From Escherichia coli (GTDB lineage: Bacteria; Pseudomonadota; Gammaproteobacteria; Enterobacterales; Enterobacteriaceae), in the NCBI RefSeq assembly GCF_003018255.1, contig NZ_CP027440.1: a DNA stretch of 64,000 nucleotides; one strand, written 5' to 3'. Positions 23,467 to 56,239 of the stretch are shown here, piece by piece. Under the pieces are notes generated by a model. The model made no database searches. It saw only the letters and a list, made by a program, of their open reading frames with translations, and had not been told where the DNA came from. Position 1 is the stretch's first letter, and each line of letters starts with the position of its first letter. Both the position numbers and the translations under genes were made by a program.

Positions 23467-23529
<63 letters not shown>

Positions 23530-23543
<14 letters not shown>

Positions 23544-23570
23544 ATTTATTAGAATGCTGACAAACCGCAA
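23530..23570 (+). repeat. Direct repeat copy 1 (tRNA 3' end plus 27 bp flank); att-like
   Basis: ggcccccgcaaccaatttattagaatgctgacaaaccgcaa recurs identically at 50661-50701. Confidence 0.85.
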
Positions 23571-23596
23571 AGCTACTATTGGCTTGCGGTTTTTTC
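23563..23596 (+). terminator. Intrinsic terminator after the tRNA array
   Basis: Stem AACCGCAA (23563-23570) / TTGCGGTT (23584-23591) followed by a T-run (23592-23596). Confidence 0.55.
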
Positions 23597-24174
23597 GTTT
23601 TTACGCTTCCTTACCCGTTTCAGTGAAGCCTGAGACAATGAGTAAACCGTTAATATCCCTCCATCAAAGCCATCCATCTTATTTATATATTAAACATATA
23701 CCCCATTAATGAATTTTATATATTCTATAAATCAATTTATTTTGGTTATGTTAACATTTCAATATCACAACAGGGCGCTACGCTTATATAATCATTGTAC
23801 AAAAAGCACACAACTTTTTAATTAGTAGAAAAATTAATAATTTTTTGTGAAAGCCCGGACAATAAGTTTAATGAATATCTTAATAGGCTCTCATACTACC
23901 CAATTTCTTAAAAGTGCAAATTTGTGAAGCTTACCCTGTTATTATTTTAAGTTTCATGCCAAATTCTCTCACCAGATAATGCCACCCTCTCCCGAAAAAT
24001 AATCAAGAGGCCAAACAATATCTAAAATGATACAACTGTATCTATTCCCCTGAAAAATACATTATTCATTTGTATATTTTCCTCATCATTGCTTTTTATT
24101 TAAATCATCCGATAATCCCCTGAATATAATTATGTCAATAACCATCAGAAAAAGTGGATGATGAGGAAAAGGAT
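23597..24174 (+). promoter_or_regulatory. AT-rich upstream region of the tssB-led T6SS operon (promoter candidate)
   Basis: About 580 bp of strongly AT-rich non-coding DNA immediately upstream of tssB. Individual sites were not mapped. Confidence 0.45.
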
Positions 24175-24675
24175 ATGGCCGACAGTTTCCAGAATGAAGT
24201 TCCCGCCGCTCGTGTAAATATCAAGCTTGATCTGCATACAGGCAATGCTAAAAAGAAAGTTGAACTCCCCCTCAAGCTTCTTGCCGTAGGCGATTACAGT
24301 AACGGAAAAGAGCAACGTCCGCTGTCCGAACGGGACAAGGTTGATATCAATAAAAACAACTTCAACAGCGTCATGGCTGAGTTTTCGCCTGCGGTTAATT
24401 TAACAGTAGAAGATACGCTAAACGGAAACGGTAATGAACAAAATATCGCGCTTGAATTTAAAAGCCTGAAGGATTTTGAACCCGAACAGGTAGCAAAAAA
24501 TATTCCGCAACTTCGTGTATTACTCGCTATGCGCAATTTACTACGTGACCTGAAATCCAATCTGCTGGATAACGCAACGTTTCGCCGTGAACTGGAAAAT
24601 ATCCTGAAAGACCCGACGCTCAGTTCAGAACTGCGTGATGAACTGGCGAAAATTGCGCCGCAGGAGAACGTTTAA
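24175..24675 (+). CDS. tssB: T6SS contractile sheath small subunit TssB (VipA)
   Basis: MADSFQNEVPAARVNIKLDLHTGNAKKKVELPLKLLAVGDYS...; typical TssB N-terminus and size. Start at ATG 24175 with GAGGAAAAGG upstream; the track begins at GTG 24154. Confidence 0.9.
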   Translation: MADSFQNEVPAARVNIKLDLHTGNAKKKVELPLKLLAVGDYSNGKEQRPLSERDKVDINKNNFNSVMAEFSPAVNLTVEDTLNGNGNEQNIALEFKSLKDFEPEQVAKNIPQLRVLLAMRNLLRDLKSNLLDNATFRRELENILKDPTLSSELRDELAKIAPQENV

Positions 24676-24727
24676 CCCGAACGCGTATTCAGGTTAAACC
24701 GGAGAAGAAAGGATCCCTAAAAAGGAA

Positions 24728-26272
24728 ATGCTGATGTCTGTACAACAAGAATATGCCACCTCTGAAACTGCAACACTCACCACCACTGAGTCCGGCGGCG
24801 TTTATCAGTCCCTGTTTGATAAAATTAATTTAACCCCGGTCTCTTCCATTCAGGAAATCGATTTATGGCAAAACAGCGAAACGCTGGCCGATGCTTCACC
24901 CGATGAGCGCGTGACGGCGGCGATCCACGTTCTGCTTTCCTGTCTGGCGAAATCAGGCGAGGACGTGGTTAAACTCGACAAGAGCCTGCTGGATTTTCAT
25001 ATCGACGATTTGGATCAGAAAATCAGTAAACAGCTTGATGCAGTCATGCACCATCCGGAATTCCAGAAAGTCGAGTCGCTCTGGCGCGGCACATGGTTCG
25101 TCGTACAGCGCACCGATTTTCGCAAAAATGTCAAAATTGAACTGCTGGATATCAGTAAAGAACATCTGCGGCAGGACTTTGATGATTCTCCGGAAATCAT
25201 TCAAAGTGGTTTATATCGCCATACATACATTCAGGAATATGATACGCCGGGTGGCGAACCTGTAGCCTCATTAATATCCAGCTATGAATTCGATAACAGC
25301 CCGCAGGATATTGCCCTGCTGCGTAATATTTCCAGAGTCTCTGCTGCATCACATATGCCCTTTATCGGTTCCGTCGGACCGAAGTTCTTCCTTAAAAACT
25401 CGATGGAAGAAGTCGCCGCAATTAAAGATATCGGCAACTATTTTGACCGCGCGGAATATATCAAATGGAAGTCGTTCCGCGATACCGACGACAGCCGCTA
25501 CGTGGGATTAGTGATGCCGCGCGTGCTGGGCCGTCTGCCCTATGGCCCGGACACGGTGCCGGTACGCAGCTTTAACTATGTGGAAGAGGTCAAAGGCCCG
25601 GATCACGAAAAGTACCTCTGGACAAACGCCTCGTTTGCCTTTGCCGCCAATATGGTGAAGAGTTTTGTGAATAATGGCTGGTGTGTGCAGATCCGTGGTC
25701 CGCAGGCGGGTGGCGCAGTAGCCGATCTGCCGATCCATCTTTACGATCTCGGCACCGGCAATCAGGTCAAAATTCCGTCCGAAGTGATGATCCCGGAAAC
25801 CCGCGAGTTTGAGTTCGCCAACCTTGGCTTTATCCCGCTCTCTTATTATAAGAATCGCGATTACGCCTGCTTCTTCTCAGCGAACTCTGCCCAGAAACCG
25901 GCGCTGTATGATACCGCTGACGCCACCGCCAACAGCCGTATCAACGCCCGTTTGCCCTATATCTTCCTGCTGTCCCGCATTGCTCACTACCTGAAAATCA
26001 TTCAGCGCGAGAATATCGGCACCACCAAAGACAGACGCGTGCTGGAACTGGAGCTGAACACCTGGATCCGCACGCTGGTGACGGAAATGACCGATCCGGG
26101 CGATGAACTTCAGGCTTCGCATCCACTGCGCGACGGGAAAGTTATCGTCGAGGACATAGAGGACAATCCGGGCTTTTTCCGCGTCAGACTCTTTGCCGTG
26201 CCGCATTTCCAGATCGAAGGGATGGACGTCAACCTTTCTCTGGTTTCCCAGATGCCAAAAGCAAAAGCCTGA
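24728..26272 (+). CDS. tssC: T6SS contractile sheath large subunit TssC (VipB)
   Basis: 514-aa ORF immediately downstream of tssB; size and position typical of TssC. True start may be the third codon (ATG 24734). Confidence 0.9.
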   Translation: MLMSVQQEYATSETATLTTTESGGVYQSLFDKINLTPVSSIQEIDLWQNSETLADASPDERVTAAIHVLLSCLAKSGEDVVKLDKSLLDFHIDDLDQKISKQLDAVMHHPEFQKVESLWRGTWFVVQRTDFRKNVKIELLDISKEHLRQDFDDSPEIIQSGLYRHTYIQEYDTPGGEPVASLISSYEFDNSPQDIALLRNISRVSAASHMPFIGSVGPKFFLKNSMEEVAAIKDIGNYFDRAEYIKWKSFRDTDDSRYVGLVMPRVLGRLPYGPDTVPVRSFNYVEEVKGPDHEKYLWTNASFAFAANMVKSFVNNGWCVQIRGPQAGGAVADLPIHLYDLGTGNQVKIPSEVMIPETREFEFANLGFIPLSYYKNRDYACFFSANSAQKPALYDTADATANSRINARLPYIFLLSRIAHYLKIIQRENIGTTKDRRVLELELNTWIRTLVTEMTDPGDELQASHPLRDGKVIVEDIEDNPGFFRVRLFAVPHFQIEGMDVNLSLVSQMPKAKA

Positions 26273-26291
26273 TCGGGCGGTGGTGTGATGT

Positions 26292-44698: not shown

Positions 44699-44713
44699 AA
44701 TAATTGTTTTTTA

Positions 44714-45115
44714 TTGTTTTTTTTGAGTGGGTGTACTTCACAAAAAGAGTATTCCAATATAGTCAGGATTGAGAATAGATGCTCCTCAGATATCGATGTC
44801 TTTATTCAGGGATATGTTTCCGGTTCTACGCTGATTTATCAGCATAATATACACTTGCCAGTTGGTGATAGTGATGTATTAGTATATTTTTCCACGGCAG
44901 ATATTGATGATGGTTTTAAATATGAGGGGGCATTCATGATATATAAAGATAGCCGCGGTGAATTGGATTATCCATTCACCATTTCATTGTCAGGGCGCGA
45001 AAAAAAATTTGGGAAGAATGACTTAATTAGATTATCACGAGATATTTCAACAAAAGACGACAGAAAATACGGAGTTATAAGATATATAATCGACAGTCAG
45101 GAAATTTGCCCGTGA
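44714..45115 (+). CDS. Candidate immunity lipoprotein for the PAAR-HExxH protein (5' end disrupted or phase-variable at a T8 tract)
   Basis: Track ORF starts at TTG 44714 (FFLSGCTSQ..., lipobox LSGC without a signal peptide). ATG 44691 in another frame encodes MIRIIVFYCFF then stops; one extra T in the T8 run (44717-44724) would fuse it into a canonical lipoprotein signal peptide. Confidence 0.5.
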   Translation: MFFLSGCTSQKEYSNIVRIENRCSSDIDVFIQGYVSGSTLIYQHNIHLPVGDSDVLVYFSTADIDDGFKYEGAFMIYKDSRGELDYPFTISLSGREKKFGKNDLIRLSRDISTKDDRKYGVIRYIIDSQEICP

Positions 45116-47085: not shown

Positions 47086-48128
47086 CCGACCGGCTGGCCC
47101 CGGATATTGCGCGGATCAATTTTTACCGTTTTTGCCAGTTGCTGGAACAGAGCCCGCAGAACGCGCCGCTGGGCAGTACCGACAGCCCCGCCACCGATGC
47201 GGTGCGCTTTCGTCCTCATCCAGGTATGGGCTTTCCGGTCAGCGAGTTAAAAAACGTTGAACGTGACGTGGGCAATCCCGACGCGCCCCCCACGGTGCGC
47301 ACCACTTTTCTCGGCCTGTACGGCGTGGATTCGCCGCTGCCAACCGCCTATCTGGACTACATTACCCAGCGTCATGACGGACATGACGCAGTGATGGCGT
47401 TTCTCGATATTTTTAACCATCGCTTTATTACTCAGTACTACCGCATCTGGCGCAAATATAACTACCCGGCGTCGTTTGAAGCAGGTGCCGTGGATGACAT
47501 TTCCCGTTGTCTGCTGGGACTCATCGGGCTGGGTATTCCCGGCAGCGAGAACCATATCGCCACGCCGGTATCCCGTTTTCTGGCCCTGCTCAGCGTGATG
47601 CGCCTGCCGACGCGCACGGCGGAAGGCGTTACGGCACTGGTGGGACTGCTTGCCCCGCTGACGAAAGCGACGGTGGTGCCTCATGATCCGCAGCCTGTAA
47701 TTCTCCCGGCCCCTGCGGGTCTGTCAAAAAATTCACGCATCAGCCTGAAAACGCGAACGCTGCTGGGGCGTACCGGTACCGACGTCAACAGCCAGTTGCT
47801 GCTGAAACTGTATACCGAAGATGCCGCAGAAGCGCGTGGCTGGCTGCCCGGCGGGCAACTGCACAGCGATTTGCTGGTGCTGCTGCGCGTTTATCTGGGC
47901 TGGCGCTGTCAGGCCCGTCTGCAACTGACGCTGCCCGTCAGCCTGTTGCCTGCTGCCCGGCTGGGAAAACAGCGTGTACAGATTAGCCGTACCGGCATCC
48001 TTCGCGCCTCCTTTGCCGCGCCCGCGACCGGAACAGTGACGGTCAGTCTGGGGCGTTATCAGGGATTAATACCCGCTTTTTCCATTCGTAACAGGGAGAG
48101 TATGACTCATGTTTCCTATTCGTTTTAA
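47040..48128 (+). CDS. tssG: T6SS baseplate protein TssG
   Basis: 362-aa ORF overlapping the tssF 3' end, with INFYRFCQLLEQ near the N-terminus; start may be ATG 47049. Confidence 0.8.
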   Translation: MPAMDRASQPARTGLTDRLAPDIARINFYRFCQLLEQSPQNAPLGSTDSPATDAVRFRPHPGMGFPVSELKNVERDVGNPDAPPTVRTTFLGLYGVDSPLPTAYLDYITQRHDGHDAVMAFLDIFNHRFITQYYRIWRKYNYPASFEAGAVDDISRCLLGLIGLGIPGSENHIATPVSRFLALLSVMRLPTRTAEGVTALVGLLAPLTKATVVPHDPQPVILPAPAGLSKNSRISLKTRTLLGRTGTDVNSQLLLKLYTEDAAEARGWLPGGQLHSDLLVLLRVYLGWRCQARLQLTLPVSLLPAARLGKQRVQISRTGILRASFAAPATGTVTVSLGRYQGLIPAFSIRNRESMTHVSYSF

Positions 48129-48645
48129 ACGTCCGGCGTTGCTCTGTATGGCGATGCTGACGGTTGTTCTGAGTGGCTGCGGGCTGATTCAGAAAGTGGT
48201 GGATGAATCGAAAAGCGTGGCCTCAGCCGTTTTCTACAAACAAATCAAAATACTGCATCTCGATTTCTTCTCCCGCAGCGCCCTGAATACGGATGCGGAA
48301 GATACGCCGCTTTCCACGATGGTGCATGTCTGGCAACTGAAAACCCGCGAAGATTTTGATAAGGCGGATTATGACACCCTGTTTATGCAGGAAGAGAAGA
48401 CGCTGGAGAAGGACGTACTGGCAAAACACACCGTCTGGGTAAAACCTGAAGGCACGGCATCCCTGAATGTGCCGCTGGATAAAGAGACGCAGTTTGTCGC
48501 CATTATTGGGCAGTTTTATCACCCGGATGAAAAAAGCGACAGCTGGCGTCTGGTGATCAAAAGGGACGAACTGGAGGCCGACAAGCCGCGCTCGATTGAA
48601 CTGATGAGAAGCGACCTGCGACTGCTGCCTCTCAAGGATAAATAA
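48109..48645 (+). CDS. tssJ: T6SS outer-membrane lipoprotein TssJ
   Basis: 178 aa with signal peptide and lipobox (MLTVVLSGCG); size and position typical of TssJ/SciN. Confidence 0.85.
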   Translation: MFPIRFKRPALLCMAMLTVVLSGCGLIQKVVDESKSVASAVFYKQIKILHLDFFSRSALNTDAEDTPLSTMVHVWQLKTREDFDKADYDTLFMQEEKTLEKDVLAKHTVWVKPEGTASLNVPLDKETQFVAIIGQFYHPDEKSDSWRLVIKRDELEADKPRSIELMRSDLRLLPLKDK

Positions 48646-48648
48646 CCG

Positions 48649-49077
48649 ATGGCGACACCTTCCTTATATGAAATGCTGACGTTCAGTTTCAGCGGCGAGT
48701 TACCGCTGGAACAGGTCAGTGAGCGGGATCAGCTTATCCTTTCCGTGATGGACAATATGCAACGCATTATCAACTGTCGGGCAGGCACACTGGCGCATTT
48801 GCCGGATTACGGTCTGCCGGATCTCAGCCTGATCCATCAGGGGATGGCTGCGGGTATTCATAGCCTGATGCGCCAGATTGAAGAAACGCTGCTGCGTTAT
48901 GAACCACGCCTGAATCAGATACAGGTGGAGTTACTGCCCCAGCCCGGTCCGGGGCATCTTAATTACCTGATCCACGCGCAGCTTCCCGATACCGGCTGGA
49001 TACGCTTTGATGGCGTATTTTCTCCGGAAGGACGAATTGTTCTGCGTCATCTCAAACAACAGGAGCGGGCGTACTGA
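48649..49077 (+). CDS. tssE: T6SS baseplate protein TssE (gp25-like)
   Basis: 142-aa ORF between tssJ and the tagA-like gene; size and context fit TssE. Confidence 0.75.
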   Translation: MATPSLYEMLTFSFSGELPLEQVSERDQLILSVMDNMQRIINCRAGTLAHLPDYGLPDLSLIHQGMAAGIHSLMRQIEETLLRYEPRLNQIQVELLPQPGPGHLNYLIHAQLPDTGWIRFDGVFSPEGRIVLRHLKQQERAY

Positions 49078-50453
49078 TGGCAAGTAACGCGAATTTTATC
49101 AGCCAGTTCGTCATGGGCGGCGATCCCTGTACTTATAAGGAATCCGGTGAACTGCAGGCTGAAATGAGTAAACTGACTCACCCGGCCCGACCGGATGTGG
49201 ACTGGCGTCAGGTGGAAAAACTCTGCCTCGCGCTGTTCCGGCAAAATGGCGTGGAACTACAGACGCTGGTCTGTTACGTGCTGGCAATAACCAGACGGCA
49301 GGGGCTGGCAGGGATGGCAGACGGACTCGGTTCACTGGATATACTGCTCCAGCGCTGGGCTGACTTCTGGCCGGTACAGGTACATTCCAGAATATCACTG
49401 CTCAGCTGGGTCACAGAAAAAATGCAGCAGGCACTGAGAACGCTGGATATTCAGTATCAGGATCTGCCGCAGATCTACCGTTGTGTACAGCATCTTTCCG
49501 CCATCGAAACCACGCTGCAACAGTGTGAACTGTGGCATATGACGAAGCTGGACGTATTGTCCGGGCAGTTTCGCAATGCGGCTCTGCGTCTGGAACGGCT
49601 GGCGCCTCAGGGAGCGGAAACCATTATCACTCCCCCTGAATTACCCCGCCGGGAAATGAATCAACCGAAAAAGTCAGAGGAAAGTCCACAGCCGGTTTTT
49701 GCAACCAGATCCGTTCAGCAAAACGATAAGGATGCCAGTCCACCCGTGCCATCCCCTGAAATCTCCCGGCAGCGGACATGGCCGATATTTATGGCCGGAA
49801 TGGTTGTGATGGCCGGTCTCGGCGGAACAGGATTATGGGGCTGGTCGCAGCTTAATCAGCCGGACGCGCTAATCCAGCGAATACAACTGTCTGTCATGCC
49901 GTTGCCGCAGTCGCTGGAGAGCGGCGAACTGGCAAAGCTGGATGTAAAGGATAAGGCGCTGCTGGCTCAGGACAGAACAATTGCGGCAAGTCAGATGCAA
50001 CTGGAGCAGTTAAACAAATTGCCTGCCCGCTGGCCACTGGAGCAGGGATATCGCCAGCTACGCCAGCTTGATGCCCTGTGGCCGGATAATCCTCAGGTCA
50101 GGGCGCTGAACGCGCAGTGGCGCAAACAGCGGGAGCTGAGCGCCCTGTCTGCTGAGGCACTGAATGGCTATGCTCAGGCGCAGAGCCAGCTACAGCGCCT
50201 GTCGGCGCAGCTGGATGCACTGGATGAACGTAAGGGGAGATATCTGACCGGTTCGGAACTAAAAACGGCGGTGTACGGCATCCGGCAGTCGTTAAAGGAG
50301 CCGCCGCTGGAAGAACTGCTTCGGCAACTGGAAGAGCAAAAACAGACCGGAGAGGTTTCGCCAACGCTGTTGACGCAAATTGATACCCGGTTAAATCAGT
50401 TGTTGAATCGCTATGTCATTTTACTGGATACGAAGGTGGAACAAAGTCAGTAA
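49077..50453 (+). CDS. tagA: TagA-like TssA-family accessory protein (ImpA_N-like domain, internal hydrophobic segment, C-terminal coiled coil)
   Basis: 458 aa; N-terminal region resembles ImpA_N (DPCTYKESGELQAEMSKL...DVDWRQVEKLCLALFRQNGVELQTLVCYVLA); hydrophobic segment WPIFMAGMVVMAGLGGTGLWGW; Q/L-rich C-terminus. ATG overlaps the tssE stop. Confidence 0.6.
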   Translation: MASNANFISQFVMGGDPCTYKESGELQAEMSKLTHPARPDVDWRQVEKLCLALFRQNGVELQTLVCYVLAITRRQGLAGMADGLGSLDILLQRWADFWPVQVHSRISLLSWVTEKMQQALRTLDIQYQDLPQIYRCVQHLSAIETTLQQCELWHMTKLDVLSGQFRNAALRLERLAPQGAETIITPPELPRREMNQPKKSEESPQPVFATRSVQQNDKDASPPVPSPEISRQRTWPIFMAGMVVMAGLGGTGLWGWSQLNQPDALIQRIQLSVMPLPQSLESGELAKLDVKDKALLAQDRTIAASQMQLEQLNKLPARWPLEQGYRQLRQLDALWPDNPQVRALNAQWRKQRELSALSAEALNGYAQAQSQLQRLSAQLDALDERKGRYLTGSELKTAVYGIRQSLKEPPLEELLRQLEEQKQTGEVSPTLLTQIDTRLNQLLNRYVILLDTKVEQSQ

Positions 50454-50660: not shown

Positions 50661-50701
50661 GGCCCCCGCAACCAATTTATTAGAATGCTGACAAACCGCA
50701 A
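50661..50701 (+). repeat. Direct repeat copy 2 (duplicate of tRNA-fMet 3' end plus 27 bp); att-like module boundary
   Basis: Identical to 23530-23570, with no tRNA body upstream. Confidence 0.85.
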
Positions 50702-50727: not shown

Positions 50728-50753
50728 GTATTTAAAATCTTTGTTCGCTGAAC

Positions 50754-51710
50754 TCACAACACGTTTTTTATCTCCCTTCCTGCGAAGTAATCAATTATCG
50801 ACTGGGCAACGTGTATCCCGGTTTGCTGGTATGACTCAACGGTGGCGGCCGCGATATGCGGCGTTGTAATGATATTTTTGGCATGTAGCAGTGGGCTAAA
50901 TTGCGCCAACGGTTCAGAGCTAAACACATCCAGCGCCGCAAACACATTTCGTTCTTCAATCACCTGAAGTAAAGCGCCCTCATCCAGCAACTTTCCCCTT
51001 GCGGCATTGATGATCAGAGCACCATTGCGCATCATCGACAAATATTTATGACTAATGAAGTTCTCCAGCTCAGAAGAAAAAGGCAAAAGAACAATGATGA
51101 CATGCGACTGCATAAAGATATCTTCAATTGATACAAACTGAACTCCAGCTTTGTCAGCAACCTGATAGTCGGGTTGTTTGTCAAAAGCTAAAAGCTCAAC
51201 ATCAAAACCAGATAACCTTTTCGCCAGTGTTTTGCCAATATTGCCGTAGCCAAGCAGGCCAATACGTTTACCTTGTAACTCGCAGCCATGCGACTCACCC
51301 CAATAACCATTTTGCATTGCATGATAGCTACCGGGGATATTTCTCATGCTCGCAAAAATAAGACCGATGATAAATTCCGCGACTGCGTTTGAATTAATCC
51401 CAACAGCATTATTGACCACAATACCTGATTGTCGAGCCGTATGAAGATCAATATTATCAATCCCTGTCCCGAATCTCGATATTATTTTCACTCCTGGTAG
51501 TCGCGATAACGTATCCGCTTGATAACAATCTTTTCCGGCAATGACTGCGCAAATAGATTCTCGTAATACTGTGGATTCTGATTTAACCAGATGCTCCACA
51601 TTATTCTTGATAATAAGGTTAAAATGATTTTCTCTTAGCAGCTTGCTGGCAGAAACACAACGCGCTGAAAAGCTGGGAACGGTGACCAGAACGTTTTTCA
51701 TAGCTGACAC
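50754..51710 (-). CDS. D-isomer-specific 2-hydroxyacid dehydrogenase family protein (NAD-binding)
   Basis: 318 aa with Rossmann motif LLGYGNIGKTLAKRL; last gene of the minus-strand operon. Confidence 0.8.
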   Translation of the reverse strand: MSAMKNVLVTVPSFSARCVSASKLLRENHFNLIIKNNVEHLVKSESTVLRESICAVIAGKDCYQADTLSRLPGVKIISRFGTGIDNIDLHTARQSGIVVNNAVGINSNAVAEFIIGLIFASMRNIPGSYHAMQNGYWGESHGCELQGKRIGLLGYGNIGKTLAKRLSGFDVELLAFDKQPDYQVADKAGVQFVSIEDIFMQSHVIIVLLPFSSELENFISHKYLSMMRNGALIINAARGKLLDEGALLQVIEERNVFAALDVFSSEPLAQFSPLLHAKNIITTPHIAAATVESYQQTGIHVAQSIIDYFAGREIKNVL

Positions 51711-51771
51711 TCACATCAATGAACGCCACCCCAAAAGATGGCGTGACCGGTTACTGTTTTATATTCTAAAA

Positions 51772-52368
51772 TTATGAGTTTGCTTTAATACCGAGCGCAC
51801 CTCCTGGATGATATAAGCCGAAATCAGCACGAGTAAACTTTTTCAATTCGGAGAGCGCAAGCGCCACCGCATCACCAACAACCAGAACGACTGTTGATGA
51901 GCATGACGGCGCTAAACCTAAATTATCCGCCTCACTTTTTACGGGAATTTCAACGGATAAATCACAACTTATCGCAAGCGATGAGCGATGACTGCGGGTA
52001 AAGGAGATCAAATAATTACCCATTTTTTTCAGACTAGGTAGTGTTGCCAGGATTTCTGTCGTCTCACCACTGTTTGAAATAAGAATAACAACATCATCTT
52101 TCGCCACCATCCCAAGATCGCCGTGTACGGCTTCAGTACCGTGAACAAAAAACGAGGGAGTTCCAGTGCTGGCAAATGTTGCGGCGAGTTTTCGGGCAAT
52201 AATACCGGACTTACCGACACCAATAAAAACAACTTTCCCCTGACAAGACTGTAATACTTTAATTAAATTTGCGACCTCCGAAAGGGGGGAATCAATAACT
52301 TCTTCAACTGCTTTATGTTCGTTACGCATAAAATGTTTAATGAGATGGATAAGATCCGTACTGTTCAT
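51772..52368 (-). CDS. SIS-domain (sugar isomerase / sugar-phosphate binding) protein
   Basis: 198 aa with SIS motif VVFIGVGKSGIIARKLAATFASTGTPSFFVH. Confidence 0.8.
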   Translation of the reverse strand: MNSTDLIHLIKHFMRNEHKAVEEVIDSPLSEVANLIKVLQSCQGKVVFIGVGKSGIIARKLAATFASTGTPSFFVHGTEAVHGDLGMVAKDDVVILISNSGETTEILATLPSLKKMGNYLISFTRSHRSSLAISCDLSVEIPVKSEADNLGLAPSCSSTVVLVVGDAVALALSELKKFTRADFGLYHPGGALGIKANS

Positions 52369-52370
52369 TT

Positions 52371-53546
52371 TTATTTTCCTTGATTAATATTTTTAATTAC
52401 ACTCGCAAGACGCGTAAGCCCCATATATAATTTTTCTCGACCGCAGGCCAGGTTCAGACGAAGGTAGCCCTCCCCCTCCGTTCCATAGACATTCCCCGCC
52501 ATAATGCCCACTTTGCCTTCATGAATTAATCGACTGTAGAATTCATCAAAGGAATAACCAATAGCAGAGCAATCTATCCACGAAAAATAGCAACCATCAG
52601 CTGGCCTTACGATCAATTCTGGAGTATTTTCGTTCAGATACTGCTGGGTGAATTGAATGTTAGAGGCGATATGTGCCTTTAATGACTTTAACCATCCCTC
52701 ACATTCATTATAGGCAACAATGGTTGCAATTATATTCAGTACTGATGGGGAGTTTACGAAATCGCGATACCTCGATATCGTTCTGAACTTATGATTATAA
52801 TCCTCGTCAGTTGAAATCAGATACGATCCTGTTAGCGCAGGAACATTAAATGTTTTCGATATCGAGTTAAATACCACTACTTTTTCTTTTTTTATTTTAA
52901 GCGCGGATGTAAAGCTACGATTAAAAACAAAATCACTATGAATTTCATCTGAACATAACCAGACATTATGCCTTGTACAGCTTGTAGCGATTTTAAGCAG
53001 TTCTTCTTCCGACCAGACTGTTCCTGTCGGATTATGAGGATTACATAATAACACCATCTTTGCGCTTTTAATCTTAAGATCAAAATCTTGCCAGTTGATA
53101 GCGTAGCCCCCCTCATTTTTTATAATCAAAGAGGCTGTCAGAATATTTCGCTCGCTATGTTTAATTACATCAAAAAATGCATTATAGACAGGTGTAAAAA
53201 CGAGAATATTATCACCATGCGATGTCAATAACTCTATTGCCTTTGCAATAGAGTACATCACACTGGGGCTATAGGTTATCCATTCAGGTTTAATGTCTGT
53301 TTGATATTGTTGATGATACCAGTTTACTATCGCATTCAGATATTCACCATGTTGCCAACGACTGTACCCTAAAATCGGGTGTTCCAGGCGTTTTTTTAAT
53401 GCTCTGGTGATAGCGTCTGGTATCGGAAGATCCATATCTGAAATAGAGAAGGGTAATACATCTTTTACACCAAATCTGTCCTCGCAAAAGTCCCATTGGG
53501 TGCAATATGTTCCTTTACGGGAAATAGGAGTATTAAAAATATCCAT
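52371..53546 (-). CDS. PLP-dependent class I/II aminotransferase-fold enzyme, MalY/PatB-like C-S lyase
   Basis: 391 aa with PLP-lysine motif SISKTFN; similar in size and features to MalY. Confidence 0.8.
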   Translation of the reverse strand: MDIFNTPISRKGTYCTQWDFCEDRFGVKDVLPFSISDMDLPIPDAITRALKKRLEHPILGYSRWQHGEYLNAIVNWYHQQYQTDIKPEWITYSPSVMYSIAKAIELLTSHGDNILVFTPVYNAFFDVIKHSERNILTASLIIKNEGGYAINWQDFDLKIKSAKMVLLCNPHNPTGTVWSEEELLKIATSCTRHNVWLCSDEIHSDFVFNRSFTSALKIKKEKVVVFNSISKTFNVPALTGSYLISTDEDYNHKFRTISRYRDFVNSPSVLNIIATIVAYNECEGWLKSLKAHIASNIQFTQQYLNENTPELIVRPADGCYFSWIDCSAIGYSFDEFYSRLIHEGKVGIMAGNVYGTEGEGYLRLNLACGREKLYMGLTRLASVIKNINQGK

Positions 53547-55126
53547 CAGCGCATCCCCATGTAGTTATCCATATCCCTACGCAGGGCGATGACTTTAGTG
53601 CCGATAATGACTTGTAGGGTATTTTGATCAAGTTTAACAACCGCAATCCCGCCAGCTCTTTTTATTGCAACTTCATCAATCAATCCCATATCTGCGATTG
53701 TTAAACGTAAACGAGTTACGCAATTATCCAGTGACTTAATATTCTCTTTACCACCAAGTGCCTTAACCATCTGCTCCGCTGCTTGCAACTCTGATTTATC
53801 AAGAGTTGGGGTATCCGCTATAGCCGTATCTTCGTGAGCGTTCAGCGTGACAGGACTGGACTCTTCACGTCCTACGGTCATCAGGTTAAATTTGAGAATG
53901 GTCCAACGGAACACAAAGTAATAAATGAAGAAATAGGCCACTTCAACACACACCGCGATCGGCCAACCTGTTCTTGTGCCACGCAATACGCCAAAGCTAA
54001 TAAATTGAATCAGATCGCCAGTAAATCCCATCTTCACGCCCATATATGGCAAGACCATGTTGGCGAATCCATTCATAAAGGCATGGAAGACAAACAGCAG
54101 CGGACTGACAAATAAGAACAGAAATTCAATCGGTTCGCTGACGCCACCAATAATAACCGTAAGCACACCGGAAATAAGCAATGCTTTGATAGCCTTTCTG
54201 TTTTGAGCATGAGCAGTGCGATACATGGCCAGTGCAGCACCAGCCAGACCGTACTGAATCATCAGTTTGCCCTGCTCCATTTTCCCCGCCAAATCCAGCG
54301 GAATGACCGCATTCTCTTTGACGTACGCCATAAACATGTTCAGGGTGCCGTAATACTCTTCGCCGCCAATCACAGCCGAACCGCCGATTGGCGTAAAGCG
54401 GAACACTGACGTCACCAGATGGTTTAAGCCAAAAGGAATCGTCACACGTTCGGCAACTGCATAGAAGAAATAACCAACAGGACCGGAAGTTGATATCCAG
54501 TGGCCAATGAGCATGAAGAGATTGAAAAATGGCGGCCAGATAAAAGGAATGATCAGACCAAATCCACTCATCACAATCAGTGTAATGATAGGCACCAGAC
54601 GTGGGCCGCTATAAAAACCTAATGATTCTGGAATGCGTAAATTAACGATCTTTTTATACATGCTGGCGACTAATAACCCAGCAACAATTCCCCCTAACAC
54701 GCTGGTATTGTAGGACTGGATCCCCAGAATGATGTTTTGCCCATGTGTCGACATTTGGTCAGCAACGACCAATAAGTCGTGCTGTTTAAGATAAAAGTTC
54801 GTTCCCAGATGCATCGCCATAAAACCAATTAAGCCAGAAAAAGCACCATAGGCTTTATCCTCTTTATCTTTTAATAATCCTAAGGGAATCGCTATCGCAA
54901 ACAATACAGGTAAATTAACAAAGGCAAACAAACCAAGACTAACAATGAAATCAAGTATGGTTTTAATTATTGGAATAGCCAGAAATGGAATTAACTTTGC
55001 CATATCATCACTGGCTAAACCACTTCCCAGCCCTAGCATCATGCCACATACACTTAGCAGAGCAATGGGATACATAAATGCCTTCCCCAGGCTCTGAAAA
55101 AAACTCCAGGCTTTCTTTTGTTTCAT
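53546..55126 (-). CDS. PTS glucose/maltose-family EIICB component (MalX/PtsG-like)
   Basis: 526 aa; polytopic EIIC followed by an EIIB domain with the active-site cysteine motif NCVTRLRL. Confidence 0.85.
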   Translation of the reverse strand: MKQKKAWSFFQSLGKAFMYPIALLSVCGMMLGLGSGLASDDMAKLIPFLAIPIIKTILDFIVSLGLFAFVNLPVLFAIAIPLGLLKDKEDKAYGAFSGLIGFMAMHLGTNFYLKQHDLLVVADQMSTHGQNIILGIQSYNTSVLGGIVAGLLVASMYKKIVNLRIPESLGFYSGPRLVPIITLIVMSGFGLIIPFIWPPFFNLFMLIGHWISTSGPVGYFFYAVAERVTIPFGLNHLVTSVFRFTPIGGSAVIGGEEYYGTLNMFMAYVKENAVIPLDLAGKMEQGKLMIQYGLAGAALAMYRTAHAQNRKAIKALLISGVLTVIIGGVSEPIEFLFLFVSPLLFVFHAFMNGFANMVLPYMGVKMGFTGDLIQFISFGVLRGTRTGWPIAVCVEVAYFFIYYFVFRWTILKFNLMTVGREESSPVTLNAHEDTAIADTPTLDKSELQAAEQMVKALGGKENIKSLDNCVTRLRLTIADMGLIDEVAIKRAGGIAVVKLDQNTLQVIIGTKVIALRRDMDNYMGMR

Positions 55127-55157
55127 GTGGGTTATCTCATATAAATGTTATATATAA

Positions 55158-55982
55158 TTAGTCCATTAATACTTTGGTACGAATAGAGAGATATAGTTTT
55201 TCTTCTAAAATTAATTCATATTTAAAAGTGGCATACAGATACCGTTCAATTTCATGAATTGCGCGCTGTAACAGGATGTCCTTTTCAAGAAACTGTTCAT
55301 AGATATCACCAATATCTTTCTGTTTTATTTTTTCATTGCATAACACGCGACTTGAAAAATATTTAAGGTGCATCATAAATCTGGAATAGTTAAATGAACT
55401 TCTGTCCACCTTTCTGTTATAAACAACTTCAATAAGCTCCGTGATTATTTGCGACAACTCAATAATCCGTACTGATTCATAATCAACTGAATTTTCATAA
55501 TTATTTAAAATATGCAATGCTATAAAACCAATCTCATCATCAGGAAGTTGAACGCTGAATTGCTCATTAATGATAGTTAATGCATCGCGACTTATCGCAT
55601 ACTCTGCTTTGTACAACGCTTTGATTTCATCAAGGAAAACATTATTAATTTGTATACCTGAAACTACTCGGGATATTGCATTCGAAATGTGATCCGCAAG
55701 AATCAATAGTAGCGATGGATTGAGATTTTTTTCGAGATTTTTCTCCGCATATTGCACTATTTTTTCGGCAACAAAAATATACTCAATATCCACATGTTCA
55801 ATCAATTTGTAGAGTTTATTTTTTTGTTCGTTTCTGACATAAAAAATCCGGTTAGCCGGATGTTCAGGGACCGACATTCCATATTTTTTGTTATAACCGA
55901 CGCCAGGTCCAGAAATGATAACCTCCTGTCCATTCATCGATGCCTGTACACAATTATTGTTCATGACTTTTTCGATGATCAT
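55158..55982 (-). CDS. BglG/SacY/GlcT-family transcriptional antiterminator (CAT RNA-binding domain plus two PRDs)
   Basis: MIIEKVMNNNCVQASMNGQEVIISGPGVGYNKKYG (CAT domain) followed by PRD-like regions. Start placed at ATG 55982; the track extension to 56039 translates the leader RAT/terminator. Confidence 0.8.
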   Translation of the reverse strand: MIIEKVMNNNCVQASMNGQEVIISGPGVGYNKKYGMSVPEHPANRIFYVRNEQKNKLYKLIEHVDIEYIFVAEKIVQYAEKNLEKNLNPSLLLILADHISNAISRVVSGIQINNVFLDEIKALYKAEYAISRDALTIINEQFSVQLPDDEIGFIALHILNNYENSVDYESVRIIELSQIITELIEVVYNRKVDRSSFNYSRFMMHLKYFSSRVLCNEKIKQKDIGDIYEQFLEKDILLQRAIHEIERYLYATFKYELILEEKLYLSIRTKVLMD

Positions 55983-55993
55983 TCCATGACTCC

Positions 55994-56068
55994 AAAAAAA
56001 AAGGCAAGGCACGTCAGAAGTAATAATTACTTCAAACATTGCCTTGCCTGATTTAACAGTTACAAGAT
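55994..56068 (-). promoter_or_regulatory. RAT (ribonucleic antiterminator) overlapping an intrinsic terminator in the leader of the antiterminator/PTS operon
   Basis: Minus strand: TCTTGTAACTGTTAAATCAGGCAAGGCA (close to sacB/bgl RAT consensus), whose 3' half GGCAAGGCA pairs with TGCCTTGCC (inner stem GAAGTA/TACTTC), followed by T9 and the start codon. Confidence 0.75.
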
Positions 56069-56118
56069 GATTAACTAATGCGTATACATTACACGGAATT
56101 GTGCTTAATTAAAGAGAT

Positions 56119-56143
56119 GGTCGGCTTATTTTTCAAGCCGACA
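56119..56143 (-). terminator. Hairpin candidate downstream of amiC
   Basis: Stem GTCGGCTT / AAGCCGAC with a 7-nt loop; the following U-tract on the minus strand is interrupted (CATCTCTTTAATT), so it is weak. Confidence 0.3.
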
Positions 56144-56239
56144 TTCAAATATTCGACATCAGTCACAAAACCAGCATCTAATATTCATGAAAATGTTATC
56201 TATTCAACGAAATATAAATTCATTGAATAAATAAAAACA

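What the first reader, a model, noticed from the sequence alone, without database searches (positions are those of the whole stretch)
23544..56230. About 32.6 kb accessory island at the metV tRNA carrying a complete T6SS plus a PTS module
The backbone on both sides is K-12-like, but everything between the third tRNA-fMet and amiC is extra relative to the K-12 order as I recall it. The first 27 kb encodes all 13 T6SS core components (tssA, B, C, E, F, G, J, K, L, M, hcp, clpV, vgrG) plus PAAR, tagL and tagA-like genes, organised with overlapping start/stop codons. T6SS-bearing metV islands are known in extraintestinal pathogenic E. coli (for example PAI-CFT073-metV, from memory), so the system class is not new; the interest is in the cargo content.
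Basis: partly seen in the sequence, partly recalled or inferred. Interest (0 to 1): 0.6.

Follow-up and report, generated by a model that had tools for sequence, protein, structure and literature searches.

The report
Known metV T6SS island, two modules
The extra DNA between the metV tRNA and amiC is the well-known E. coli "PAI-metV" region: a complete bacterial-killing type VI secretion system, inserted at the tRNA end next to a separate sugar-uptake operon, carrying a rare pair of predicted cell-envelope-attacking toxins.

Summary
K-12-type genomes match the window only up to ~23554 and again from ~56239; K-12 has a 73-bp metV–amiC spacer there.

HMM scans recover all 13 T6SS core families, plus a TagL-like OmpA protein, a TagA-like ImpA_N protein and PAAR. 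TssM falls below its NCBIfam cut-off but has three Pfam IcmF domains.

The region corresponds to the published 32-kb PAI-CFT073-metV, including its c3405–c3410 PTS genes, so the island class is already known.

New detail: it is two independent modules.
- The 27.1-kb T6SS (23544–50660) is bracketed by a perfect 41-bp direct repeat containing the last 14 nt of tRNA-Met. It has no integrase.
- All four site states exist among complete genomes: empty, PTS only, T6SS+PTS, T6SS only.
- Prevalence in 5426 genomes: T6SS 3′ half 1280, PTS module 1686.

The cargo is a rare haplotype (79 genomes, mostly poultry and human ExPEC):
- A VgrG-linked Amidase_2/PGRP-fold effector, with a conserved, secreted, Cys-rich partner.
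- A PAAR–Ig-like–HExxH metzincin-like toxin from an unnamed family, with a lipoprotein partner. In this window that partner carries a private homopolymer frameshift.

Both toxins are predicted, not tested. Overall interest is low to moderate.

The parts
23247..23543 (+). Three tandem tRNA-Met(CAU) genes (metZ/W/V array): 23247-23323, 23357-23433, 23467-23543
   Evidence: ARAGORN; Rfam RF00005
23530..23570 (+). Left copy of the perfect 41-bp direct repeat (last 14 nt of the third tRNA-Met plus 27 nt downstream); attL-like
   Evidence: 2 exact matches, 0 expected by chance; alignment; also in L001 and L004
23571..24174 (+). AT-rich (31% GC) non-coding leader upstream of tssB; includes the metV terminator-like hairpin and one 10/12 sigma-70-like site at 23764-23792
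   Evidence: No GATC and no Fur box above shuffled background
24175..24675 (+). tssB (sheath small subunit)
   Evidence: TIGR03358, 163.5 bits vs cut-off 97
24734..26272 (+). tssC (sheath large subunit)
   Evidence: TIGR03355, 663.7 bits vs 271.5
26292..27629 (+). tssK (baseplate)
   Evidence: TIGR03353, 398.3 bits vs 100
27626..28291 (+). tssL, short form (membrane complex)
   Evidence: NF038239, 278.2 bits vs 180
28304..29956 (+). TagL-like accessory protein: 550 aa with a C-terminal OmpA/peptidoglycan-binding domain (residues ~416-540)
   Evidence: OmpA-type hits, all below equivalog cut-offs; PGAP 'OmpA family protein'. The name TagL rests on position and domain only
30014..30505 (+). hcp / tssD (tube)
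   Evidence: TIGR03344, 172.5 bits vs 58.9
30697..33342 (+). tssH / clpV (sheath-recycling AAA+ ATPase)
   Evidence: TIGR03345, 1106.9 bits vs 885
33354..35834 (+). vgrG / tssI (spike), 826 aa, with an ~80-aa allele-specific C-terminal extension (residues 744-826) beyond DUF2345
   Evidence: TIGR01646, 462.6 bits. Pfam Phage_GPD, Phage_base_V, T6SS_Vgr, DUF2345. Homology to another strain's vgrG stops at ~35642 (H7)
35867..36601 (+). Cargo 1 effector: 244-aa Amidase_2/PGRP-fold protein, a predicted Zn-dependent N-acetylmuramoyl-L-alanine amidase; 31.6% GC
   Evidence: Pfam PF01510, E 3.4e-11. H85/H226/E236/K232 conserved in the family. AF2 pLDDT ~90 over residues 50-240. Foldseek top hits PGRP, AmpD, LysCS, T7 lysozyme. 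VgrG- or PAAR-adjacent in Salmonella and Pseudomonas
36537..36980 (+). Cargo 1 putative immunity protein, ~147 aa, with an N-terminal signal-like hydrophobic segment and conserved cysteines; overlaps the effector gene by 65 nt; 30.9% GC
   Evidence: Homologous partner downstream of the amidase in Salmonella (47%), Pseudomonas (31%) and Archangium (30%), but not S12's SLT partner. No PDB or NCBIfam hit
37086..38300 (+). Conserved 404-aa protein with two N-terminal hydrophobic segments, always just upstream of tssM; unknown function (PGAP: 'KPHS_23130 family T6SS system protein' for the d1-58 homologue)
   Evidence: No Pfam or NCBIfam hit. Homologues in E. coli, Salmonella, Pseudomonas. Same position in L001, L004, L009
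38357..41683 (+). tssM (membrane complex), 1108 aa
   Evidence: Pfam IcmF-related, IcmF_helical, IcmF_C. TIGR03348 259 bits, below cut-off 388, C-terminal two-thirds only
41676..43286 (+). tssA
   Evidence: TIGR03362, 469.5 bits vs 230
43286..44698 (+). Cargo 2 effector: PAAR (residues 12-68), disordered linker, Ig-like beta-sandwiches (~125-280), then a C-terminal HExxH metzincin-like domain (AHEMGH 393-398; invariant H411, E432, D434, M436, Y438). PGAP start is 43292
44691..45115 (+). Cargo 2 putative immunity lipoprotein. In the window it is frameshifted in its signal peptide (T6 at 44707-44712 instead of T7): ATG 44691 stops at 44724-44726, and the remainder is readable as ORF 44714-45115
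   Evidence: Intact allele MIRIIVFLLFFLSGC... in GPEC1165. At least 58 of 60 sampled same-allele genomes are 1 nt longer than the window. S12 allele 67% identical, with lipobox LAGC
45325..47085 (+). tssF (baseplate); the mechanical ORF starts at 45286
   Evidence: TIGR03359, 578.5 bits vs 260
47049..48128 (+). tssG (baseplate)
   Evidence: TIGR03347, 258.6 bits vs 143
48109..48645 (+). tssJ (outer-membrane lipoprotein)
   Evidence: TIGR03352, 79.7 bits vs 31.6
48649..49077 (+). tssE (baseplate, gp25-like)
   Evidence: TIGR03357, 87.9 bits vs 53
49077..50453 (+). TagA-like accessory protein (ImpA_N / VasL domain), 458 aa
   Evidence: N-terminal partial match to TssA models, below cut-off. PGAP 'VasL domain-containing' / 'ImpA domain-containing'
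50661..50701 (+). Right copy of the 41-bp direct repeat (attR-like). The T6SS module ends at ...CTCTTGACTGT (50660), the same boundary as in strain d1-58
50754..51710 (-). PTS module: D-2-hydroxyacid / phosphoglycerate-dehydrogenase-family protein
   Evidence: TIGR01327 216.7 bits, below cut-off; PGAP name
51772..52368 (-). PTS module: SIS-domain sugar-phosphate isomerase (KpsF/GutQ N-terminal half only, 198 aa)
   Evidence: TIGR00393 191.8 bits vs 203.7, profile positions 1-152 of 268
52371..53546 (-). PTS module: PatB/MalY-family PLP-dependent C-S lyase
   Evidence: TIGR04350, 368.4 bits vs 340
53546..55126 (-). PTS module: EIICB transporter of the glucose/maltose (MalX-like) family, with no EIIA domain
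   Evidence: TIGR02004 536 bits, below cut-off 632
55158..56039 (-). PTS module: BglG/LicT-family PRD antiterminator
   Evidence: NF046042 225.3 bits, below cut-off 300; PGAP 'PRD domain-containing protein'
56240..57493 (-). amiC (backbone gene, right flank)
   Evidence: NF038267, 799.5 bits vs 700. K-12 homology resumes at ~56239

Best explanation
The segment 23544-56238 is this strain's version of the known E. coli metV genomic island (PAI-metV). It consists of two independently acquired modules placed side by side.

Module 1 (23544-50660, 27.1 kb, ~58% GC) is a complete, intact T6SS of the E. coli T6SS-1 / EAEC Sci-1 type. It inserted at the 3' end of a tRNA-Met gene, leaving a 14-bp core (41 bp in this lineage) direct repeat, and no longer carries an integrase.

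Module 2 (50702-56238) is a five-gene catabolic operon: a BglG-type antiterminator, a MalX-like EIICB, a PatB/MalY C-S lyase, a SIS isomerase and a 2-hydroxyacid dehydrogenase. Its substrate is unknown. It already lay next to metV when the T6SS inserted.

Inferred mechanism. The TssJLM/TagL membrane complex and the TssEFGK baseplate assemble an Hcp tube inside a TssBC sheath. The tube is tipped by VgrG and the PAAR protein. Contraction drives the tip into a neighbouring Gram-negative cell, and ClpV recycles the sheath.

Two low-GC (31-34%) cassettes supply the payload.
- A 244-aa Amidase_2/PGRP-fold Zn amidase, probably carried on the allele-specific C-terminal extension of VgrG. It is predicted to cut the N-acetylmuramoyl-L-alanine bond of peptidoglycan.
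- The PAAR protein itself, whose C-terminus is an Ig-like plus HExxH metzincin-like metallopeptidase. It is predicted to act on a periplasmic or cell-envelope substrate.

Each toxin is followed by an overlapping gene for a small exported protein (a signal peptide for the first, a lipoprotein for the second). These are predicted to protect sister cells in the periplasm.

Shown here: gene content, boundaries, repeats, distribution, domain and fold assignments, and conservation of catalytic residues and of the effector-partner pairs. Inferred: secretion, enzymatic activities, targets and immunity function.
For: Boundaries and empty site.

T6SS core families.

Two modules:
- Perfect 41-bp repeat at 23530-23570 and 50661-50701, also present in JNE112863 and S12.
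- A PTS-only genome, MS 21-1, whose metV-proximal junction matches the window's T6SS/PTS boundary.
- A T6SS-only genome, d1-58, with the identical T6SS right end followed by the 14-nt tRNA fragment, an inter-tRNA spacer, a full tRNA-Met and the K-12-type junction.
- Different prevalences: 1280 vs 1686 of 5426 genomes.

Literature identity with PAI-CFT073-metV: PMC2660368, PMC3032704, PMC3573123, PMC2831201.

Cargo cassettes are compositionally distinct and allele-variable between strains: Tle1/DUF4123, SLT, M35 peptidase, pyocin-S and Ntox44 alternatives.

Amidase: Pfam; conserved H85/H226/E236/K232; fold; T6SS neighbourhood in other genera; conserved partner.

Against: - No integrase, excisionase or transfer gene lies in or next to the T6SS module. 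The repeat could therefore reflect homologous recombination among tRNA-Met copies rather than site-specific integration.
- The 27 nt of identity beyond the 14-bp core are not explained by a simple att model.
- The third Zn ligand of the amidase is Glu rather than the usual Cys or Asp, and its position is inferred from alignment only.
- In this window the second immunity gene is frameshifted. If real, that is hard to reconcile with an active toxin, unless translation starts at TTG 44714 or the toxin is not expressed.
- No expression, secretion or killing data exist for this haplotype.
Confidence: 0.85

Rival explanations
1. The whole 32.6 kb is a single island acquired in one event. PTS-only and T6SS-only strains are secondary deletions.
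For: CFT073's PAI-metV has been treated as one 32-kb unit in the literature (PMC3573123). 1082 genomes carry the T6SS 3' end and the PTS module contiguously. The internal direct repeat could itself mediate precise T6SS deletion, producing PTS-only strains.
Against: The internal 41-bp repeat reproduces the tRNA 3' end exactly at the T6SS/PTS boundary. Strain d1-58 has the T6SS inserted with the same right end but with a K-12-type junction and no trace of the PTS module. The PTS module is more prevalent than the T6SS (1686 vs 1280 genomes) and differs in composition (34-44% GC vs ~58%).
Confidence: 0.1
2. The region is ancestral to E. coli and K-12-like strains lost it. The repeats are the substrate of deletion, not the scar of insertion.
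For: There is no integrase. The T6SS-1 is spread over many lineages (24% of complete genomes; 'broadly present' across phylogroups, PMC12282107). Many loci show decay: an IS in tssM, partial clusters.
Against: The T6SS has markedly higher GC than the flanks. It lies at a tRNA 3' end with a partial-tRNA direct repeat, the standard signature of insertion. The same module end abuts different tRNA-array copies and contexts in different strains, which implies independent insertions or transfers. The closest relatives of the system are islands in Salmonella, SPI-20/21 (PMC2907695).
Confidence: 0.15
3. The T6SS here mainly serves host-directed virulence, and the two 'cargo' enzymes are not antibacterial toxins. 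The amidase could be a housekeeping or phage-derived lysin, and the PAAR extension a structural or host-targeting domain.
For: The haplotype is enriched in poultry and human extraintestinal isolates. ExPEC and APEC T6SS components have been linked to host-cell interactions (review PMC6730261). The VgrG2b metallopeptidase has been described as a trans-kingdom effector (PMC12992299).
Against: Both enzymes are followed by overlapping genes for small exported proteins that co-vary with them across genera, which is the hallmark of antibacterial effector-immunity pairs. An NAM-L-Ala amidase has no eukaryotic substrate. The amidase family sits beside VgrG or PAAR, not in prophages. CFT073 ΔPAI-metV showed no defect in zebrafish (PMC3573123, Table 1).
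Confidence: 0.1

Closest known systems
PAI-CFT073-metV (UPEC CFT073, c3385-c3410) and 'ETSS2' of E. coli W
   Same: Same chromosomal site downstream of metV, same size (32 kb), a T6SS of the same type followed by the c3405-c3410 maltose/glucose-type PTS gene set, and absence from K-12 (PMC2660368, PMC3032704, PMC3573123, PMC2831201).
   Different: I did not align CFT073 directly. The variable slots after vgrG and in the PAAR gene differ between strains. Here they hold an Amidase_2 cassette and a specific metzincin-like PAAR allele found in only 79 of 5426 complete genomes. The two-module structure and the internal tRNA-derived repeat are not mentioned in the papers I could read.
EAEC Sci-1 / E. 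coli T6SS-1 (subclass i1) gene cluster
   Same: Same gene order: tssB-tssC-tssK-tssL-tagL-hcp-clpV-vgrG-[cargo]-tssM-tssA-paar-tssF-tssG-tssJ-tssE-tagA. It also has a 'vgrG-effector-immunity...paar' variable fragment, as described for EAEC 042, LF82 and UTI89 (PMC6730261).
   Different: Those strains carry Tle1, Tle3 or Tle4 phospholipases in the vgrG slot (PMC6730261). This one carries a peptidoglycan amidase. The leader has no GATC site and no Fur box above background, so the Fur/Dam control I recall for Sci-1 is not supported here. The subclass was assigned by synteny, not by phylogeny.
VT1/VTI1, the ETEC vgrG-island amidase effector (Ma et al. 2018, as summarised in PMC6730261)
   Same: An E. 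coli T6SS effector encoded downstream of vgrG with an immunity partner. It is reported to cleave the N-acetylmuramoyl-L-alanine bond and to be phylogenetically distinct from Tae1-4. That is the same predicted chemistry and genetic layout as cargo 1.
   Different: The VT1 sequence (KX118292) and the original paper were not available, so whether cargo 1 is VT1, a relative, or an independent Amidase_2 recruit is untested. Genomes carrying cargo 1 are mostly APEC and ExPEC, not ETEC.
VgrG2b C-terminal metallopeptidase of P. aeruginosa and SARI_02727 of Salmonella SPI-20
   Same: T6SS-delivered HExxH zinc metallopeptidase toxins that act in the periplasm and are neutralised by an exported immunity protein (PMC6899460 abstract; PMC12992299). 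SPI-20 is the Salmonella relative of the PAI-metV T6SS (PMC2907695).
   Different: Those toxins are fused to VgrG or are small stand-alone proteins. Cargo 2 is PAAR-fused, has Ig-like domains, shows no detectable sequence similarity to any PDB chain including 6H56, and its best structural matches are adamalysin/ADAM-type metzincins.
AmpD / T7 lysozyme / PGRP / phage endolysin amidases (Pfam Amidase_2, PF01510)
   Same: Same fold, and conserved Zn-binding His pair and catalytic Lys positions.
   Different: Only 10-19% identity to solved structures. The family has a specific ~45-residue insert (residues ~130-175). The putative third ligand is Glu236, at AmpD-like H+10 spacing. An N-terminal ~50-residue disordered extension is present. 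The genomic context is T6SS, not cell-wall recycling or a phage lysis cassette.

Membership tests
Type VI secretion system (canonical T6SS-i) | Presence of all 13 core components TssA-TssM | tested here: met
   12 families above NCBIfam curated cut-offs. TssM below cut-off (259 vs 388 bits) but with Pfam IcmF-related, IcmF_helical and IcmF_C.
Type VI secretion system (canonical T6SS-i) | Genes intact (no frameshifts, IS elements or truncations in core genes) | tested here: met
   Every core ORF is full length relative to its profile. Other strains have IS-disrupted tssM or tssA.
Type VI secretion system (canonical T6SS-i) | Hcp/VgrG secretion and contact-dependent killing | not testable with these tools
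   Requires secretion and competition assays.
E. coli T6SS-1 / EAEC Sci-1-type cluster (subclass i1) | Characteristic gene order with tagL after tssL, short-form TssL, and tagA at the 3' end | tested here: met
   Order shown. TssL short form NF038239. OmpA-domain protein after tssL. ImpA_N/VasL protein after tssE.
E. coli T6SS-1 / EAEC Sci-1-type cluster (subclass i1) | Phylogenetic placement of TssB/TssC in the i1 clade | not tested
   No reference tree was built. The literature places the PAI-metV T6SS with SPI-20/21 in one group (PMC2907695).
PAI-CFT073-metV genomic island | Location between metV and amiC, absent from K-12 | tested here: met
PAI-CFT073-metV genomic island | Content: T6SS plus the c3405-c3410 maltose/glucose-type PTS gene set, ~32 kb | tested here: met
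   Content, size 32.7 kb. Literature description in PMC2831201 and PMC3573123. No direct nucleotide alignment to CFT073 was made.
tRNA-integrated mobile genomic island | Direct repeat of the tRNA 3' end at the distal boundary | tested here: met
   41-bp perfect repeat including 14 nt of tRNA-Met. The same 14-nt junction occurs in d1-58.
tRNA-integrated mobile genomic island | Island-encoded integrase next to the tRNA | tested here: not met
   No integrase-like ORF or family hit between 23544 and 56238. PGAP annotations of four related loci list none.
Amidase_2 N-acetylmuramoyl-L-alanine amidases (PF01510) | Profile match and PGRP/T7-lysozyme fold | tested here: met
   E 3.4e-11. Foldseek probability 1.0 to PGRP, AmpD, LysCS and T7 lysozyme.
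Amidase_2 N-acetylmuramoyl-L-alanine amidases (PF01510) | Zn-binding triad (His, His, Cys/Asp) and catalytic Lys/Tyr | tested here: inconclusive
   H85, H226 and K232 are invariant and align with T7 lysozyme H17, H122 and K128. The Cys130 position is variable. Near-invariant E236 lies at AmpD-like H+10 spacing. T7 Tyr46 aligns with Thr105. Metal binding was not modelled.
Amidase_2 N-acetylmuramoyl-L-alanine amidases (PF01510) | Cleavage of the MurNAc-L-Ala bond | not testable with these tools
   Needs muropeptide analysis.
VT1/VTI1 effector-immunity family (Ma et al. 2018) | Sequence homology to VT1 (GenBank KX118292) | not testable with these tools
   Neither the sequence nor the paper is held. 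Only the review summary is available.
T6SS effector-immunity pair (generic) | Effector adjacent to vgrG/PAAR, with a co-inherited small downstream partner bearing an export signal | tested here: met
   Cargo 1. Cargo 2. In the window the cargo 2 partner is frameshifted.
Metzincin / zincin metallopeptidases | HExxH motif with conserved downstream ligand and Met-turn | tested here: inconclusive
   AHExGH is invariant, as are H411, E432, D434, M436 and Y438. The spacing does not fit the canonical HExxHxxGxxH. Which residue is the third ligand is unknown.
Metzincin / zincin metallopeptidases | Catalytic-domain fold | tested here: inconclusive
VgrG2b-type T6SS metallopeptidase effectors | Detectable homology to the VgrG2b C-terminal domain (PDB 6H56) | tested here: not met

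The most novel reading that the evidence does not exclude
The C-terminal ~350 residues of the PAAR protein (Ig-like sandwiches plus an HExxH metzincin-like domain) may define an uncharacterised family of periplasm-acting T6SS and polymorphic-toxin metallopeptidases.
- It has 368 representatives at 50% identity.
- It is fused to PAAR in Enterobacteriaceae and Pseudomonas, and stand-alone with a small partner in Bacteroidota.
- It is present in some allele in about 865 of 5426 complete E. coli genomes.

Its envelope substrate and lipoprotein immunity mechanism would differ from VgrG2b-type toxins. Alongside it, the Amidase_2 cassette may be a second, independent recruitment of a PGRP-fold amidase as a T6SS effector, using a Glu third ligand and a Cys-rich immunity protein.
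Probability: 0.4. Interest if true: 0.45.

Novelty: already known. Interest (0 to 1): 0.27.

Why it matters
The island itself adds nothing new. It is the textbook metV T6SS island of extraintestinal E. coli, and the same haplotype is already in 79 RefSeq genomes.

Three points have modest value:
- The "island" is two separately acquired modules. The T6SS has clean tRNA-derived att-like ends but no integrase, which bears on how T6SS-1 spreads and is lost in E. coli.
- An APEC/ExPEC-associated haplotype combines two predicted cell-envelope toxins that have not, as far as I could find, been characterised.
- The PAAR-fused metzincin-like domain is common in E. coli T6SS-1 loci, including widespread clinical lineages, yet has no family name or known substrate. 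That makes it a reasonable target for a focused biochemical study.

Tried and rejected
- **25-nt tRNA 3'-end search.** It found only the three tRNAs. It missed the partial repeat because only 14 nt of the tRNA are duplicated. The repeat was found by reading the spacer and then confirmed.
- **Fur box and Dam (GATC) control of the leader, recalled for EAEC Sci-1.** There is no GATC in 23571-24174, and the best Fur match (13/19) is within the shuffled background. Rejected as unsupported.
- **Sigma-70 and terminator scan of the leader.** 6 sites vs 3.5±2 expected. Uninformative.
- **Phase-variable immunity via T-runs.** Rejected. At least 58 of 60 sampled same-allele genomes have the intact length, and no genome shares the window's T6.
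- **Sequence searches of both toxins and both partners against PDB.** Nothing significant. The fucose-lectin hit is a short repeated-motif artefact.
- **NCBIfam on the five cargo or accessory proteins.** No hits.
- **Rfam scan.** No structured RNA inside the island.
- **Retrieving the VT1 paper.** Not held.
- **STEC T6SS1 preprint and EHEC in-silico paper.** No information on these two cargo proteins.
- **Context of a stand-alone PAAR-CT homologue in Limnobaculum.** No T6SS genes nearby. Uninformative.

Full report

Yes. ARAGORN and Rfam place three tRNA-Met(CAU) genes at 23247-23323, 23357-23433 and 23467-23543. I searched 23000-47999 and 48000-57600 against 5426 complete E. coli genomes. Every K-12-type genome matches only the first ~555 bases (mltA and the tRNAs, to window ~23554) and then again from query position 8240 (window ~56239, the amiC stop). 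In K-12 the third tRNA-Met is followed 73 bp later by amiC. The flanks are ordinary backbone: csrB, syd, queF, sdaCB, the fuc operon, gcvA/gcvB, csdAE and mltA on the left, and amiC, argA and recD on the right.

**2. T6SS gene content**

NCBIfam HMMs give above-cut-off matches for TssB, TssC, TssK, TssL (short form), Hcp, TssH/ClpV, VgrG, TssA, TssF, TssG, TssJ and TssE. TssM scores 259 bits against a curated cut-off of 388 and matches only over its C-terminal two-thirds. Pfam nevertheless finds IcmF-related, IcmF_helical and IcmF_C, so it is a TssM with a divergent N-terminal cytoplasmic part.

Accessory genes are as follows:
- A 550-aa protein with a C-terminal OmpA-type peptidoglycan-binding domain follows tssL, in the TagL position.
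- A 458-aa ImpA_N/VasL protein follows tssE, in the TagA position.
- A 404-aa protein with two N-terminal hydrophobic segments lies immediately upstream of tssM. It has no Pfam or NCBIfam hit. It is conserved at that position in every related locus I examined, and in Salmonella and Pseudomonas. PGAP calls one homologue a 'KPHS_23130 family T6SS system protein'.

All core ORFs are full length. The gene order is that of the EAEC Sci-1 / E. coli T6SS-1 type.

**3. The island is two modules, not one**

Reading the spacer after tagA showed a second copy of the end of metV. A perfect 41-bp direct repeat, GGCCCCCGCAACCAATTTATTAGAATGCTGACAAACCGCAA, lies at 23530-23570 and 50661-50701. It comprises the last 14 nt of the tRNA plus 27 nt downstream, and none is expected by chance. 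It brackets only the T6SS. The same pair of repeats is present in JNE112863 and S12.

Four states of the site exist among complete genomes:
- Empty, as in K-12.
- PTS only, as in MS 21-1, where metV is followed directly by the PTS module. Its junction matches the window's T6SS/PTS boundary.
- T6SS plus PTS, as in the window.
- T6SS only, as in d1-58.

In d1-58 the T6SS ends at exactly the same base (...CTCTTGACTGT). It is followed by the same 14-nt tRNA fragment, then an inter-tRNA spacer, a complete fourth tRNA-Met and the K-12-type junction to amiC. A 14-bp core repeat of a tRNA 3' end at a fixed island boundary, abutting different chromosomal contexts, is the usual scar of integration at a tRNA gene.

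No integrase is present in the window or in four annotated relatives. The element is therefore either an immobilised island or one now exchanged by homologous recombination of its flanks.

Prevalences differ among the 5426 genomes:

| Segment | Genomes with ≥80% coverage |
|---|---|
| T6SS 3' half (45286-50660) | 1280 |
| PTS module (50700-56200) | 1686 |
| First 25 kb (23000-47999) | 297 |

The low figure for the first 25 kb arises because the cargo slots vary and many loci are decayed, for example by an IS in tssM or tssA, or as half-clusters. Composition also separates the parts: structural T6SS genes are 50-61% GC, the PTS module is 34-44%, and the flanks are about 52%.

**4. The PTS module (50754-56039, minus strand)**

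It encodes five proteins:
- a BglG/LicT-type PRD antiterminator;
- an EIICB of the glucose/maltose family, closest to MalX but below its cut-off, with no EIIA domain;
- a PatB/MalY-family C-S lyase, above its cut-off;
- a 198-aa SIS domain corresponding to the N-terminal half of KpsF/GutQ;
- a D-2-hydroxyacid dehydrogenase.

It matches the literature description of c3405-c3410 in PAI-CFT073-metV, annotated 'PTS system, maltose/glucose specific' and retained in all UPEC examined (PMC2831201). The substrate is unknown. The malX-malY-like pairing suggests uptake and processing of a glucoside or an amino-acid-conjugated sugar, but that is inference only.

**5. Cargo 1**

Directly after vgrG lies a 31.6%-GC gene for a 244-aa protein, followed by a 65-nt-overlapping gene for a ~147-aa protein (30.9% GC).

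Evidence that the 244-aa protein is an amidase:
- It matches Pfam Amidase_2 with E 3.4e-11.
- Its family is small, with 33 clusters at 90% identity, but spans Enterobacterales, Pseudomonas and a myxobacterium.
- In the family alignment H85, H226 and K232 are invariant. They align with T7 lysozyme H17, H122 and K128.
- The Cys130 position is not conserved, but E236 is near-invariant at the H+10 spacing that AmpD uses for its Asp ligand.
- An AlphaFold model has pLDDT ~90 over residues 50-240. It matches PGRPs, AmpD, clostridial and Bacillus endolysin amidases, and T7 lysozyme.

Evidence that it is a T6SS effector with an immunity partner:
- In Salmonella the homologue lies directly after Hcp-VgrG inside a T6SS. 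In Pseudomonas it follows a PAAR gene next to tssM.
- In Salmonella, Pseudomonas and Archangium it is followed by an overlapping small ORF homologous to the window's partner (47%, 31% and 30% identity). These share invariant cysteines and signal-like N-termini.
- The partner of a different effector, S12's SLT transglycosylase, does not align.

VgrG has an ~80-residue extension beyond DUF2345. Homology to another strain's vgrG ends near 35642 (H7). This is consistent with a swapped unit of VgrG tail, effector and immunity gene, and the idea that the tail holds the effector is inference. The cassette occurs in 78-79 of 5426 genomes, mostly poultry/APEC and human isolates.

A MurNAc-L-Ala amidase effector encoded downstream of vgrG, VT1/VTI1, has been described in ETEC (Ma et al. 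2018, as summarised in PMC6730261). I could not obtain its sequence or the paper. Whether cargo 1 belongs to that family is therefore open, but the kind of effector is known.

**6. Cargo 2**

The gene after tssA encodes a 470-aa protein. It has PAAR at residues 12-68, a disordered linker, and a C-terminal ~350 residues with no Pfam, NCBIfam or PDB sequence match.

The C-terminal region forms a family:
- It is fused to PAAR in Enterobacteriaceae and Pseudomonas, and is stand-alone in Limnobaculum, Hahella and several Bacteroidota.
- An exhaustive search finds 368 representatives at 50% identity. The domain is usually at the C-terminus of proteins of 350-1378 aa, as expected for a polymorphic-toxin module.
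- AHExGH (393-398) is invariant, as are H411, K412, E432, D434, M436 and Y438.

The downstream gene encodes a small lipoprotein in intact alleles: MIRIIVFLLFFLSGC... in GPEC1165 and MTRVVIALLFLAGC... in S12. That points to a periplasmic site of action. Bacteroidota homologues also have a small overlapping downstream ORF.

The closest characterised analogues are the VgrG2b metallopeptidase and Salmonella SPI-20 SARI_02727 (PMC6899460, PMC12992299). I found no detectable homology to them.

Some allele of this PAAR C-terminal domain is present in 865 genomes, mostly at ~81% nucleotide identity. The window's allele is in 79. Other strains carry pyocin-S, Ntox44 or DUF2235 C-termini on a near-identical PAAR.

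**7. A defect in the window**

The cargo 2 immunity gene is frameshifted in its signal-peptide region. The window has T6 at 44707-44712 where the intact allele has T7. At least 58 of 60 sampled genomes with this allele are one base longer than the window, and none matches it exactly. The two JNE strains carry an independent deletion in the next T-run.

The frameshift is therefore private to this sequence. It is either a homopolymer sequencing error or a very recent mutation. I reject phase variation.

**8. Comparison, novelty and verdict**

The island is the known PAI-metV / T6SS-1 island (PMC2660368, PMC3032704, PMC3573123, PMC2831201, PMC2907695, PMC6730261). This exact haplotype is already deposited and machine-annotated in 79 RefSeq genomes.

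This analysis adds three things: the two-module architecture, the att-like tRNA-derived repeats around an integrase-less T6SS, and a description of two predicted but uncharacterised envelope-targeting toxins. The most novel reading that survives is that the PAAR-fused metzincin-like domain is an unnamed, fairly common T6SS toxin family with an unknown periplasmic substrate. That is plausible but rests on sequence motifs, a predicted fold and gene context only.

Noticed in passing
window 44691-44726 (T-run 44707-44712): The lipoprotein immunity gene downstream of the PAAR toxin has a 1-nt deletion in a T7 homopolymer, which frameshifts its signal peptide. No other complete genome shares it. The two JNE strains have an independent 1-nt deletion in the adjacent T8 run.
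   Followed up: yes
L001 24869-25495 (JNE112863), equivalent to window 35867-36601: The closest complete genome carries a frameshifted 208-aa version of the amidase effector (P0005, P0008), whereas the window copy is the full-length 244 aa. So effector or immunity genes of this haplotype are independently damaged in different strains.
   Followed up: partly
window 37086-38300: A conserved 404-aa protein with two N-terminal hydrophobic segments always lies just upstream of tssM. It has no Pfam or NCBIfam hit here, PGAP calls a homologue 'KPHS_23130 family T6SS system protein', and homologues occur in Salmonella and Pseudomonas. Its function is unknown.
   Followed up: partly
L008 6519-7067 (strain d1-58); also H146-H149: Some T6SS-1 loci carry an extra MucR-family transcriptional regulator gene between tagA and the distal tRNA fragment. 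It is absent from the window, and may be a lineage-specific regulator of the cluster.
   Followed up: no
L008 7330-7450 and L010 1616-1912 (strain d1-58): This strain has four tRNA-Met genes, three before the T6SS and a complete one after it. So the T6SS sits in a different register of the tRNA array than in the window, where only 14 nt of the distal copy remain.
   Followed up: yes
window 23571-24174: The 604-bp leader upstream of tssB is 31% GC and lacks any GATC site or above-background Fur box. Regulation may therefore differ from what I recall for the EAEC Sci-1 promoter.
   Followed up: partly
(genome lists): The amidase cassette and this PAAR-CT/immunity allele are each found in 79 genomes, with many of the same strain names (APEC O78:H4, APEC O2-211, the GPEC series, MDR_56). 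This suggests one linked haplotype enriched in poultry-associated and human extraintestinal lineages.
   Followed up: partly
L012 842-2176 and 6001-7312 (Archangium sp.): A myxobacterial homologue of the amidase with the same overlapping partner gene lies outside any visible T6SS cluster, next to a second, larger Amidase_2 protein. The effector-partner pair is therefore not restricted to T6SS loci.
   Followed up: no
window 180-539 (-) and 18718-18923 (+): The backbone sRNA genes CsrB and GcvB are present at their expected K-12-like positions.
   Followed up: no
window 51772-52368 (-): The SIS-domain protein of the PTS module is only 198 aa. It matches just the N-terminal 152 of 268 positions of the KpsF/GutQ profile, lacks the CBS pair, and so is not a canonical arabinose-5-phosphate isomerase.
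   Followed up: no
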